Part shown: positions 1,923 to 35,619 of the stretch, piece by piece
How positions within the stretch are numbered: position 1 is the stretch's first letter
Layout of the letters: every line of letters begins with the position of its first letter
Assembly (NCBI GenBank): GCA_030264375.1
Contig: JASCQW010000072.1
Span: 93,551,368-93,615,367, forward strand
DNA from: Carcharhinus longimanus
Taxonomy: Eukaryota
Direction: 5' to 3'
DNA: 64,000 nt
Translations under genes and position numbers: made by a program
Notes under the pieces: model-generated
Database searches by the model: none
What the model saw: the letters and a program-made list of their open reading frames with translations, nothing else
Told to the model about the DNA's origin: nothing

Positions 1923-4184
1923 ATACTTTAAACTCTTAATATTATGTTATAACAGAACTGTCACATAGATGACAGTTGTATTAGGATGTTTTGGAGTGAC
2001 TTAAAAAGAATACTCATGGTATAATGGCTTCACAAAATATTTAGCTTGAAATTTAAATTTAACACGTGGATTTGTGGCATAAAGATTATTCACAATGAAG
2101 TAAAAGGGATGTTCCGCTGGTGAGTAACCAGCGGGATTGACTTTCTAACTTCATTACTCATAAATTATGAGTTCATCCAGTGAATGGGATCCCCTGTGCA
2201 GTCCACTGTTTTTTGGTGCCACTCAGCACGGTGTGCGCTCTTTGCTGACACAGCTGGTTCTAATCCTGACACTTGTGCAGGTTTCTGTGTGATGTGGTTC
2301 AGTGAGCAAGGTGAGACAAAATAACCCTGTAATCATTCACTCACACACAAACTGATGATGATTGTTTGGAATTTTTAAAAAAACAATGCTTACAGTAAAG
2401 CTACCAGTGAGTGAGTGCATTCAGACTTGTATGGGTGCAGGTTACAAAATGGTGTATTACGTTCAATTTAAATGTGTATTATTTACGGTTGCACTCAGTG
2501 CTGTGGAGGAGGGCAGCTCCAGTGATAATCAATAGTGCATGTTAAAAAAAGAAGAGATTAATATTGAAAATAGATGCCATTAAACATGTGCAGGCTACTT
2601 TTTTCAGTTGTCTACCCATAAGAATTAACAATGTTTATTCCGCAATACACATAATTTAAGAATGTGGGAAAGCGTTAGGATAAAAACAGTTTTTGACTTG
2701 TTGATATTGGCATTGCCTTATTATTTTCTCCCTTGTGTCTTTTAATGTCCGCCATATTTTCCATTCAGGAATTAATGGGACAACATTAGTAACTACTGTT
2801 AAGGCAAACGTTTTGTGATAACTCAGATCGACTCGGCAACTGGCATTTTTACTGTCCTTGGGACTCCTTATATGTAGTTATAATAAGAAATGCTACAGAA
2901 ATATGTAGGATGTTGCACTGCATTAGTTTATTTTGCCTTAGTTATAATTGCAGTTGGAAAACATCCCCAATGCGGAAGGTCCAAGAACCATTGTGTTGTC
3001 TGTCGGAGCTTCAAAGAGTCATCCAAATGGACTGAATAAGGGCTTAAAAGAATAAAGCTTAGCACTAGTTGGAAAGCACATTACTTTTGTAAGTAAATAC
3101 TCCTTGTAGTGTACATATTTGAAGTACAAATATATTAAATCATAAACCTTTAAATAAATATAGTTGAAGCAAACAACATTTGTTTTTGGCAGATCCATCA
3201 GTAGTACTTAAAAAAATGAGTGGCAAGCATTTAAGAAATTATCTGTATTTTTGTTGCCATATTTATCCTGATTTTCAAAAGCAGCAACAATATATAGTGC
3301 AATGTGAAATATCTGCCACGTCCGCACTGAAAGGCTGTGTAAATGGCAGCTTCATAGTATGCCGTATAAAGCTCATATTGTGAAAAGGTCATTTTTTTTC
3401 AAACAAGGTTATTTTCCTGTTGTTAGTGCACCACTGTAGTAGTTACAATGGGAATAGGATTACAGCGGAAAAGATGTTGAGAGAGAGAGGAGAAACTGGA
3501 GTGGACTTAGAAGATGGCTGAAATAAATGTGCGAATTCTAGGAGAATCTGGAAAAAGTTTCTGTCTCTACAACAAAAACAAATAAGGGTTTAGGAATAGT
3601 TATTTAATCTGTATATAATATTTTTAATGATCAGTAATATGTGAGTAATATAGAGCATCATGCTCAGTTAATCCTTCACGATCTACATCATAAGCACATT
3701 CAATTTAAATAAAGTACAAATACCTGATATCTTTTATCCTCACTGGCTCCTCTTTTGATGATGTTTATCAGTGCAGGCTTTAACATAATCCTGCTGCATA
3801 TCATGACATTTAAGCCTCTCTTCTGTGGTTTTATTTGATATCAATTTTGTTACCTTAAGCCACACCATAATTCTCTCTTGAATGGTTTACTGCCTTGTAA
3901 TATTTAAATATATGTGTAATAAAATTTAAAGGGTTACAATATAAAACAAAATTTTAAAACTGCTTTCAACATACACCAGCATGTTTAAATGTTATTGCCT
4001 TTTTTTAAAATTACCCCTTTCTTGCCAGTTTTCTCCTCTCCATCTCTTCTAACTCCTTGGAAAAGTTTTAAACATCAAATATTACAGAGAAACTCGACTT
4101 TATATTAACAACTCTAGTTATTCCATTCTGCATCATTCCATCACTTAAAAAATATGATTCCACCAGAACAACAGTGCATTCAAT

Positions 4185-33275: not shown

Positions 33276-34247
33276 AATTCAAAGCAGGTCACAAGACATC
33301 CTTCATTCCTCCATTTTAGCCTAAATTTAAACAACATTCCCAAAGCATATCAATCTTATAAACTTCATACTTGTAACACTGACTGCCTCCGCAAGTTCAA
33401 GCATTTGATCCTGGCAATGGGATTCCTCAGCCTTCGACAAAACTGAGCTCAATGTTTCTAGTCTATGGCCTTTCATCAGAAAGTTCTGAACTTGATAAGT
33501 TGCTCGCAGCTCAGAAAATGACTGCCTAGGCTGGGAAATCCAAAATCAAGGGTTAAAACTTTACCTTGCTAATTTACCTGAAAGATCCCAAGGGCTTCCC
33601 TTCTTGCCTTCGATCCCACCCTGCAGAAACCTGGAAGAGGGCCAGATGCTGTCACGATCTGAGCTGACGTCAATTTCATGGGGATTTAATCCCCTGCGCA
33701 TAAGAAAGCCTCCCTCCTGTTGCAGAGGAAAATTTCCCGAAGTTTCAGAGTTGGAAAGTGATCCTTATAGTGATAGCCCGGCCTTGATGAGGAAATGGGC
33801 AAGAACACTGTGTAATTTTCCCTTTTTAGATCCACAAAGAGTTTTCGCCCTGGGTTTTGAATGGTGAAATGAGCTGTATTTCAGAATCCTTTACCAAAGA
33901 CTCTGGCATTTTGATATAAATAATCACAGGAGACTTGCAGTGAAATGAGGAAGGCAGGAAACAGATTTTCTCTAAGAGGCCATTTTGCATAGGTTTCACA
34001 AATTAAGAAAGATGACTTAGATTGTTGTGCTATATAATCAAAATGTTACAAAAAAAAATTCTCCCATCTACTTCAGTTAGTTTGAACGAGATATGTTGAA
34101 CTGAACTTAACAGTGCCAGCAATAGACCTTCCTGTTTCAACCCAATTGTCAGAATTGCTCTTAATTGTTTGAAGCAGTTTTCAGAAAACATTTCACTCTC
34201 TGTTTGGTGAGTTGGAACTTGATTAAATTATTAAAAAAGTGAAAAAA

Positions 34248-34551
34248 AAGCTTATTTATTTGTTACAATTAGGTTTACAGTCACATTGCAATTAAGTTAC
34301 CGTGAAAATCCCCTAGTCTCCACACTCCAGCACCTATCCAGGTACACTGAGGGAGAATTTAGCATGGCCAATTCAACTAACCTGCACATTTTTGGACTGT
34401 GGGAGGAAACCAGAGTACCCGGAGGAAACCCCCACAGACACAGGGAGAACATGCAAACTCCACACAGACAGTGACCCGAGCCGGGAATCGAACCCAGGAC
34501 CCTGGAGCTCTGAAGCAGCAGTGCTAACCACCGTGCTACTGTGCCACCCAT
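34248..34551 (-). mobile_element. V-SINE, tail type A
   Basis: Full reverse copy. Confidence 0.9.
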
Positions 34552-34599: not shown

Positions 34600-35165
34600 A
34601 TTATTGAGCGGGTGGGAAACGCCTGGTGTTTCCGAGTAAGCAAATGTCACTCTAGGTGTGTGAAAATAAATTAAATGATGATTGAACGGGGCGAGACATG
34701 TTATTTATGAGGAGAACTCCGCGGGCCACAGATCCACCACTGGCCTTGTGTTCAGTGCTTAGCAGGTTCTAATTTCCTGACCGCTGGCCAATCATTATCG
34801 TCAGCGCCGCTATCGCTGAACAAAATGAAGCGACGTCTTTAACCGGCTTTGAAGTAAACCCTGTGGAAACGTCGCGTGACCACTCGTCACGTAGCAGCTA
34901 CCTATCCATTCACGTACAGTGGCCACGTCACCCTGGCAGGGTCACTGAAGCAAACGAGGCTTCCTCACGGTTTTGCAGTCAGCCTTGACAGTTTTCAGGC
35001 GAGCCACAATTGGCAGAAGGTTCGCGCGAACCCGTGGCAAGGCAGAAGGAGACAAATCGCAATGTGGAATGGCCTCAGAAAATGTCACAACAGGAAAATG
35101 TCAAGGCGGTTGACACAATTGGAGCACGGAGCTCTGACGTAGCTACGCAGCTGCTACAAGGGAAT
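34600..35165. promoter_or_regulatory. Orphan CpG island, candidate promoter or enhancer
   Basis: About 34 CpGs in ~550 bp by hand count, no recognisable repeat; CCAAT/ATTGG boxes and six ACGT cores. Confidence 0.65.
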
Positions 35166-35174
35166 GTGACTTAT

Positions 35175-35434
35175 TTCATGGAATCGTAGAATCCCCGCAG
35201 AGCAGAAGGAGGCCATTTGGCCCATCGAGTCTGCACCAACCACAATCCCACCTGGGCCCTATTGCCGTAACCCCACATATTTTTGAATTAATGTAAAAAT
35301 AAATCTGGAATTAAGAATCTACTGATGATCGTGAAATCATTGCTGATCGTCGGAAAATCCCATCTGGTTCACTAATGTCCTTTAATGAAGGAAATCAGCC
35401 ATCCTTATCTGGTCAGGCCTACACATGACTCCAG
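35175..35434. mobile_element. HE1 tail (-) abutting SINE family B body (+)
   Basis: gaatcgtagaatcccc...ggaggccatttggccc; aaatctggaattaagaatctactgatga...acatgactccag. Confidence 0.8.
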
Positions 35435-35619
35435 NNNNNNNNNNNNNNNNNNNNNNNNNNNNNNNNNNNNNNNNNNNNNNNNNNNNNNNNNNNNNNNNNN
35501 NNNNNNNNNNNNNNNNNNNNNNNNNNNNNNNNNNCCCTACCACCATGAGGCAGTAGTGCAAACCACTACGCCGCCACATATCACAATTATATTTTTGATG
35601 ACACCCAGTAACTGAGCAG

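What the first reader, a model, noticed from the sequence alone, without database searches (positions are those of the whole stretch)
34600..35165. Orphan CpG island dense in bZIP/UPR/hypoxia-type motifs
Seen: the only non-TE CpG-rich stretch I found (~34 CpG in ~550 bp). It has CCACGTCA (34923-34930, UPRE TGACGTGG on minus), CACGTA twice (34888, 34911; HRE TACGTG on minus), TGACGTAG (35135), GGCCAATC (34786), CACAATTGG twice, and ATTGG-A-GCACG (35118-35128, one mismatch from ERSE-II ATTGGNCCACG). Inference: germline-unmethylated promoter of an unannotated transcript or alternative first exon, or a stress-responsive enhancer for XBP1/ATF6/CREB3 or HIF.
Basis: partly seen in the sequence, partly recalled or inferred. 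Interest (0 to 1): 0.7.

Follow-up and report, generated by a model that had tools for sequence, protein, structure and literature searches.

The report
Shark intronic CpG island in turnover
This is a real, single-copy CpG-rich patch inside a long intron of a shark ethanolamine-kinase gene, but its best stress-response motifs are missing from the related sharks compared, so it is likely an ordinary orphan CpG island that is gaining G+C in this lineage and eroding in others, not a conserved stress switch.

Summary
Observation confirmed: 34 CpG in 566 bp, GC 0.51, O/E 0.94 (window 0.29). Every motif is where stated, and this is the top CpG peak in 554 kb. It is single-copy in the genome and lies in the ~115-kb intron 3 of an ethanolamine-kinase paralogue beside a SoxD gene. 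The stress-enhancer reading fails its own test. In 4 related taxa (about 5-9% divergent) the UPRE and one TACGTG are absent in 3 of 3 readable, TGACGTAG is intact in 0 of 4, and the ERSE-II-like site is broken in 2. Each of the two best motifs owes its existence to one window-lineage substitution. That lineage shows 10 A/T-to-G/C changes against 0-1 reverse, while two other taxa lose CpGs at 3-7 times the non-CpG rate. Relatives carry a perfect E-box (GTCACGTGAC) that the window has lost. Best reading: an old orphan CpG island in turnover, likely hypomethylated and GC-converting here and methylated elsewhere, with incidental motifs. There are no RNA, methylation or chromatin data and no cross-species flank control. 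The scan's earlier notes held nothing on this DNA.

The parts
34605..35165 (.). Single-copy CpG-rich patch (orphan CpG island by GC >= 0.5, O/E >= 0.6, >= 200 bp) in intron 3 of an ethanolamine-kinase-like gene on the + strand
34871..34880 (.). Broken E-box: the window reads GTCGCGTGAC; with the A that D, F and G carry at 34874 it is the palindrome GTCACGTGAC (USF/TFE 'CLEAR' type). Intact in D and F, one flank change in G, broken in the window and E
   Evidence: motif name from PMC12087643 passage
34923..34930 (-). UPRE match TGACGTGG, made by an A-to-C change at 34926 on the window lineage; absent in D, E, F (G not readable there)
34911..34916 (-). TACGTG match made by a T-to-G change at 34914 on the window lineage; absent in D, E, F
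34888..34893 (-). TACGTG match; no change listed in D or G, changed at 34892 in F (low-depth contig)
34786..34793 (+). GGCCAATC CCAAT box; no change listed in D or F, two changes in G
35114..35128 (+). Second CACAATTGG and the ERSE-II-like ATTGG-A-GCACG; 35121 changed in D and F, 35128 in D
35135..35142 (+). TGACGTAG; 35135 changed in D and F, 8-nt deletion at 35141 in E, G's contig leaves the window sequence at 35134 (apparent deletion)
35023..35028 (.). CGCGCG run; four CpG-type transitions in both F and G (reads CATGTA)
34247..34546 (-). SINE-like repeat, left border; ordinary methylated-type decay (3 of 16 family CpG columns kept; other copies 28%)
35171..35434 (.). High-copy repeat tail (35171-35282) plus a second repeat (35282-35434), right border, followed by an assembly gap at 35435-35534

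Best explanation
This is a single-copy orphan CpG island in intron 3 of an ethanolamine-kinase-like gene, present in related sharks, that is likely a weakly constrained old open-chromatin site in turnover, with stress-type motifs that are likely by-products of recent base changes. SHOWN: location, single copy, orthologues in four other taxa, loss of the flagged motifs there, opposite substitution bias between lineages, and indels and a SINE insertion inside it. INFERRED mechanism: the ancestor was already CpG-rich, perhaps a weak promoter or enhancer around a USF/TFE-type E-box. In lineages F and G it likely became methylated in the germ line, so CpGs decayed to TpG/CpA. In the window's lineage it likely stayed hypomethylated and took up A/T-to-G/C changes, most simply by GC-biased gene conversion at a local recombination site. 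Those changes destroyed the E-box and happened to spell TGACGTGG and TACGTG, since a new CpG in an A_GT context yields the ACGT core of bZIP/HIF motifs.
For: Host gene: PF01633 exons flank the window; exon 3 at window -50237 and exon 4 at 64535. Orthologues: 34 other letters in 636 (D), 30 (E), 46 in 628 (F), 7-9% per piece (G). Motif positions are not spared: D 5 of 60 motif vs 16 of 312 other positions, F 3 of 37 vs 23 of 213. CpG vs non-CpG C/G transitions: F 12/42 vs 4/94 (p 1e-4), G 11/48 vs 9/135 (p 0.005), D 7/64 vs 6/186 (p 0.02). F still has about 11 CpG in 250 bp and G 15 in 389 bp against about 11-12 per kb background, so the ancestor was CpG-rich. Window lineage: 10 W-to-S, 0 S-to-W (at most 1 hidden), p 0.002-0.012; 7:0 without CpG-type transitions (p 0.016); 8:0 without the two motif sites; F+G terminal branches 9 W-to-S vs 19 S-to-W (Fisher p about 0.001). 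Background W-to-S share in nearby repeats 0.30-0.44. A SINE is inserted at 35070/35071 in E; deletions in E, F, G. The genome's true ETNK promoter island is denser (36 CpG in 382 nt, GC 0.66) and has palindromic CACGTG x2, TGACGTCA and GCGCATGCGC, none of which the window patch has.
Against: No methylation, chromatin or recombination data. No cross-species flank control: both read-laying runs went on the island, so a genome-wide W-to-S excess on this lineage is not excluded. The patch was picked for CpG richness, which biases toward lineage gains and inflates the CpG-transition ratios. Strict window-only changes are 5:0 (p 0.06), and 7:1 gives p 0.07. Polarity assumes F and G lie outside window+D+E; four D+E-shared sites conflict with seven window+E-shared sites. 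The flanking repeats show no clear CpG protection or GC gain (left: 7 W-to-S, 12 S-to-W, 13 of 57 copies as high; right tail 4:2, 5 of 88 as high). D lost 3-4 CpGs by transition while also gaining G+C, which does not fit a clean switch. E and F are contigs of depth 2-3, and only 40 of 99 and 40 of 54 difference rows were shown.
Confidence: 0.55

Rival explanations
1. It is a functional intragenic promoter or long-range enhancer (for a short or antisense transcript, the host kinase gene, or the neighbouring SoxD gene) run by sites other than those flagged, such as the ancestral E-box and the 34845-34891 core, with turnover of individual sites.
For: It is the only strong non-repeat CpG peak in 554 kb, including the host gene's own exon 1. 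A perfect GTCACGTGAC in D and F has Markov expectation 0.0008 in this stretch (post hoc), and its CACGTG core survives in F and G amid CpG decay. No change is listed at 34845-34869 in D, F or G. SoxD-type HMG exons lie about 296 kb away. Many mammalian orphan islands show initiation (PMC2944787, abstract).
Against: The E-box is broken in the window and in E. Divergence in the core is no lower than at the AT-rich edge (G: 18/208 vs 12/173). A SINE insertion and deletions fall inside it. A 25-bp invariant run is about what chance gives at this divergence (my estimate, not a call). No palindromic CRE, NRF1 or GC box.
Confidence: 0.22
2. It is the slowly decaying relic of a CpG-rich insertion (low-copy transposon, viral or other foreign fragment) that entered before these sharks split, is methylated everywhere, and has simply decayed least in the window's lineage.
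For: Sharp edges; GC only 0.51-0.53 with no CpG depletion; CpG transitions are elevated in D, F and G; one frame has 138 codons with a single TGA; a T-run lies at the left edge.
Against: No second copy in the genome. No homologue for that frame in 1.84 billion representatives, and no Pfam hit for the 8 island frames scanned. The neighbouring SINE, shared with D, E and G, kept only 3 of 16 CpG columns. Decay alone does not give 10:0 W-to-S, including two transversions, on the window lineage.
Confidence: 0.15
3. One reading: a stress-responsive XBP1/ATF6/CREB3 or HIF enhancer or promoter, here necessarily a newly gained, lineage-specific one.
For: Exact UPRE and two TACGTG within 45 bp; ACGT 6 vs 2.2 expected (p 0.015). 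The host gene acts in phospholipid synthesis, a plausible UPR target (own knowledge).
Against: UPRE and one TACGTG are absent in 3 of 3 readable relatives, TGACGTAG is intact in 0 of 4; no exact ERSE or ERSE-II; p-values are post hoc and uncorrected; the site is about 202 kb from the host's exon 1.
Confidence: 0.07

Closest known systems
Orphan CpG islands and their turnover between species (Illingworth 2010, PMC2944787, abstract seen; Kocher 2024, PMC11170920, abstract, passages and section 14 seen)
   Same: Meets the GC >= 50%, O/E >= 0.6, 200-bp definition; away from any annotated start; CpG content differs between related species; Kocher names GC-biased gene conversion and decaying transposon promoters as possible sources.
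   Different: Shark, not mammal; no histone-mark, methylation or expression data; barely over the GC cut-off, and relatives F (GC 0.48 over 250 bp) and G (0.42 over 389 bp) fall under it.
Gene-conversion-built non-genic CpG islands at PRDM9-independent recombination hotspots (dog: Berglund 2014, PMC4350167, abstract and section 18 seen; mammals: Joseph 2024, PMC11161765, abstract seen)
   Same: Lineage-specific W-to-S excess at a small non-promoter CpG island; location shifting with methylation.
   Different: No recombination map; bias rests on about 10 sites; flanking repeats show little of it; PRDM9 is reported in cartilaginous fish, with a weak or missing SSXRD domain in some (PMC5519329, passages), and was not examined in this genome.
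UPRE / ERSE / ERSE-II elements (PMC8301375, passages) and HIF response elements (RCGTG, recalled)
   Same: One exact UPRE octamer and two TACGTG hexamers in the window species.
   Different: No exact ERSE or ERSE-II; not at a promoter; the UPRE and most companion motifs are not conserved.
Promoter CpG island of the ETNK paralogue in the same genome (C130 near 5.956 Mb)
   Same: Similar CpG O/E (0.87 vs 0.94).
   Different: The promoter has GC 0.66, 36 CpG in 382 nt, palindromic E-boxes, TGACGTCA, GCGCATGCGC, an ATG exon and a GTAAGG donor; the window patch has GC 0.51 and none of these palindromes.

Membership tests
Orphan CpG island | At least 200 bp, GC >= 50%, CpG O/E >= 0.6 | tested here: met
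   566 bp, 0.507, 0.94; criteria from PMC11170920 section 14
Orphan CpG island | Not at a known gene start and not a repeat | tested here: met
   Intron 3 of an ETNK-like gene whose exon 1 is about 202 kb away; single copy. An unannotated start cannot be excluded.
Orphan CpG island | Unmethylated in germ line or soma; H3K4me3 or initiation | not testable with these tools
   Only indirect: 0-2 CpG losses on the window lineage, 3-5 on each of D, F, G
UPR (XBP1/ATF6) element | Exact UPRE TGACGTGG/A | tested here: met
   34923-34930 on the minus strand, window species only
UPR (XBP1/ATF6) element | ERSE (CCAAT-N9-CCACG) or ERSE-II (ATTGG-N-CCACG) | tested here: not met
   0 exact matches; the near-match has its mismatch in CCACG
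UPR / HIF element | Motifs conserved in related species | tested here: not met
   UPRE and TACGTG(34911) absent in D, E, F; TGACGTAG intact in 0 of 4; TACGTG(34888) unchanged in D and G, changed in F
UPR / HIF element | Stress-inducible binding or activity | not testable with these tools
   Needs ChIP or a reporter
GC-biased gene conversion tract | Lineage-specific excess of W-to-S over S-to-W substitutions | tested here: met
   10:0-1 on the window lineage, p 0.002-0.012; background share 0.30-0.44; strict subset 5:0, p 0.06
GC-biased gene conversion tract | Excess is local relative to flanks and coincides with raised recombination | tested here: inconclusive
   No cross-species flank data; flanking repeats unremarkable or only slightly biased; no recombination map
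Young transposon or retrocopy | Other copies or a parent in the genome | tested here: not met
   1 match (itself); the DNA search scored 1 candidate and may miss very old copies
Coding exon | Conserved open frame with a homologue and synonymous bias | tested here: not met
   Frameshifting indels in E, F, G; D shows 6 synonymous vs 15 non-synonymous changes in the 138-codon frame; no homologue

The most novel reading that the evidence does not exclude
Sharks have PRDM9-independent recombination hotspots at orphan CpG islands, and this intron catches one in the act: gene conversion in one lineage erased an ancestral USF/TFE E-box and wrote new XBP1 and HIF sites, turning an old element in a SoxD/ethanolamine-kinase landscape into a new stress-responsive enhancer, while sister lineages methylated it away.
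Probability: 0.1. Interest if true: 0.6.

Novelty: new member of a known kind. Interest (0 to 1): 0.25.

Why it matters
As it stands it is a modest, instructive case: stress-factor motif clusters in a CpG-rich patch can be a few substitutions old, and comparison with close relatives exposes this. If the G+C gain is local and general to such islands, it would give a sequence-only way to ask where sharks recombine and how fast germ-line methylation boundaries move in slowly evolving genomes. My paper searches (listings only for most hits) showed no study of CpG-island turnover in sharks, but they do not cover subscription journals or supplements.

Tried and rejected
RNA evidence: no RNA holder listed among 23 runs; uninformative. 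Non-coding RNA: Rfam gave 1 weak hit outside the island (E 2.8); no tRNA in the window. Coding exon, viral or transposon frame: rejected; only the 138-codon frame went to the deep protein search. Genes in the window: 0 Pfam hits in 221 stop-free frames; short exons can be missed, as the host's own exon 3 was. Flank scan used 278 of 437 candidate frames and found the kinase exons plus one sub-threshold SNAPC1 hit. Internal or inverted repeats: nothing notable in the island. Alternative first exon from the ATG at 35082: only a weak donor, and indels in E and G; rejected by inspection. Homology to introns of the two paralogues: nothing better than E 0.085. An early note that the patch matches the paralogue's promoter island in composition was wrong (an N gap diluted the count) and was corrected. 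F's different left flank matched nothing in the window or 83 loci. Flanking repeats as a test of hypomethylation or GC gain: unremarkable. Earlier scan notes: nothing near, no look-alikes, one unrelated note.

Full report
1. Observation. The stretch 34600-35165 has 34 CpG in 566 bp, GC 0.507 and O/E 0.94, against 0.29 for the window; all listed motifs are at the stated coordinates. It is bounded by a SINE-like repeat at 34247-34546 and by repeats at 35171-35434. It is the highest CpG peak in 554 kb of surrounding DNA, where 2 of 895 bins reach 25 CpG. It is single-copy by DNA search (1 candidate), translated search (1 match of 8 candidates) and a 22-mer with 2 mismatches. With dinucleotide content held fixed, motif excess is modest and post hoc: ACGT 6 vs 2.2 (p 0.015), UPRE p 0.042, RCGTG p 0.33, CCAAT p 0.10, no exact ERSE or ERSE-II.

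2. Setting. The window has no Pfam hit in 221 frames, but flanking DNA does. Choline/ethanolamine-kinase exons lie on both sides. Using paralogue exons as queries, exon 1 is at C72:93383733, exon 2 at 93489052, exon 3 at about 93501130 and exon 4 at 93615902, 535 bp past the window end. The patch therefore sits in a ~115-kb intron 3, about 85 kb after exon 3, 29 kb before exon 4 and 202 kb from exon 1, which has no CpG island. The genome has three such loci, each tail-to-tail with a split-HMG gene. The C72 neighbour's best solved-structure match is SOX-5 (E 5e-21), so it is SoxD-type. That it is SOX6, and the host a third ETNK paralogue, is my recall-based inference.

3. Relatives. Twenty-three runs from 12 studies hold the stretch or part of it, coded organisms A-G plus unnamed runs and one shark metagenome; none is on record as RNA. 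I laid 4 of them (D=X9, E=X12, F=X16, G=X21) and 3 again on the motif core. The tables showed 40 of 99 and 40 of 54 rows: 29 of D's 31 places, 28 of F's 34 in the core, 34 of G's 41; E-only rows were hidden. E and F are low-depth contigs, but the key differences are shared with D. Divergence is about 5% (D, E) and 7-9% (F, G), and is no lower in the motif core than at the AT-rich edge.

4. Motif test. CCACGTCA has 34926 C-to-A and CACGTA(34911) has 34914 G-to-T in D, E and F; G is unreadable there. TGACGTAG is changed at 35135 in D and F, cut by an 8-nt deletion in E and apparently deleted in G. The ERSE-II-like site and second CACAATTGG are changed at 35121 in D and F. The first CACAATTGG and GGCCAATC are broken in G; CACGTA(34888) in F. 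In favour of some retention: GGCCAATC and the first CACAATTGG show no change in D and F, and CACGTA(34888) none in D and G. Overall, motif positions differ as often as others (D 5/60 vs 16/312; F 3/37 vs 23/213). E has a SINE inserted at 35070/35071. The ERSE-II near-match has its mismatch in CCACG, the half that gives XBP1/ATF6 specificity (PMC8301375, passages). Conversely, D, F and G have A at 34874, which makes 34871-34880 the palindrome GTCACGTGAC in D and F, the CLEAR/USF-type E-box (PMC12087643, passage); chance expectation 0.0008 in this stretch, post hoc. The window and E have lost it.

5. Direction of change. Against the window, F and G differ by 30 S-to-W vs 10 and 6 W-to-S (p 0.002 and 7e-5); D and E are not significantly skewed. 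CpG positions change by transition 3-7 times more often than other C/G in D, G and F; this ratio includes window-lineage gains, so it is inflated. F and G still hold about 40 CpG per kb, so the ancestor was CpG-rich. Sites where D (or E) and F/G agree against the window give 10 W-to-S, 0 S-to-W (at most one hidden) and 2 W-to-W. Five are window-only and five shared with E. The skew survives dropping CpG-type transitions (7:0, p 0.016) or the two motif sites (8:0, p 0.008), and weakens to 5:0 (p 0.06) on window-only sites or 12:3 (p 0.035) if the four D+E-shared sites are counted as reversals. F-only plus G-only changes run the other way (9:19; Fisher p about 0.001). Repeat copies in the region give a background W-to-S share of 0.30-0.44. 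Against a broad, long-lived hotspot: the left SINE kept 3 of 16 CpG columns and is unremarkable, and the right tail is only slightly biased. I have no cross-species flank control, and the patch was selected for CpG richness.

6. Not coding, not a known RNA. One frame (34773-35186) has a single TGA in 138 codons. No change is listed at that TGA in D or F; E, F and G have frameshifting indels; D shows 6 synonymous vs 15 non-synonymous changes; there is no homologue among 1.84 billion representatives. Rfam and ARAGORN found nothing in the island.

7. How it most likely works. Shown: an intronic, single-copy, ancestrally CpG-rich patch with no sign of constraint on the flagged motifs and opposite base-composition drift in different lineages. 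Inferred: a once-open element, possibly built around the E-box, that F and G now methylate in the germ line, while the window's lineage keeps it hypomethylated and adds G+C, likely by GC-biased gene conversion. The UPRE and one HRE are side effects of two such changes. Confidence 0.55 overall; the gene-conversion step alone about 0.35-0.4. Rivals: functional intragenic promoter or enhancer using other sites (0.22), decaying relic of an old insertion (0.15), newly gained stress enhancer (0.07).

8. Comparison with what is known. It meets the sequence definition of an orphan CpG island (PMC11170920 section 14). Turnover of such islands, with gene conversion as one source, is described in mammals (PMC11170920 abstract and passages; PMC4350167 abstract and section 18; PMC11161765 abstract; PMC2944787 abstract). 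PRDM9 in cartilaginous fish: PMC5519329, passages. A true promoter island in this genome, at the C130 paralogue, is much richer in G+C and in palindromic motifs. No supplements were read. Searches for a shark study of this kind and for a third ETNK paralogue showed none in their listings.

9. Verdict. Real feature, ordinary kind: a new member of the orphan CpG islands in turnover. The stress-enhancer reading is not supported. Interest 0.25.

Noticed in passing
G000:C72:93383733-93737206 (+); the whole window lies in its intron 3: A divergent ethanolamine-kinase-like gene spanning about 354 kb with a non-CpG-island exon 1. The genome has three such loci (C72, C130, C142), each tail-to-tail with a split-HMG Sox gene; likely a retained third ETNK paralogue beside SOX6 (names inferred from recall).
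   Followed up: partly
G000:C72:93882353-93893391 (-); L084, L085: SoxD-type HMG-box exons about 296 kb from the patch; best PDB match SOX-5.
   Followed up: partly
L050 about 3420-3800 (-), G000:C130 near 5.956 Mb: Promoter CpG island and exon 1 of the C130 ETNK paralogue, with CACGTG twice, TGACGTCA and GCGCATGCGC, next to an assembly gap.
   Followed up: partly
G000:C72:93639896-93640395 (window coordinate about 88530): Second CpG peak (29 per 500 bp, GC 0.56, O/E 0.73), 79% repeat-covered, about 1 kb before a kinase exon; probably a young CpG-rich repeat.
   Followed up: no
   Followed up: partly
window 34875-34891: Inverted repeat CGTGAC-N5-GTCACG with no change listed in D, F or G; its three CpGs are among the five kept in all three. 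Not shown to be beyond chance.
   Followed up: partly
G000:C72:87.07-87.12 Mb and C130:31.66-31.69 Mb: Two further PF01633 loci with a different exon pattern, likely choline kinases.
   Followed up: no
L038:8010-8216 (-): Sub-threshold Pfam SNAPC1 hit (E 0.009, below cut-off); probably chance.
   Followed up: no
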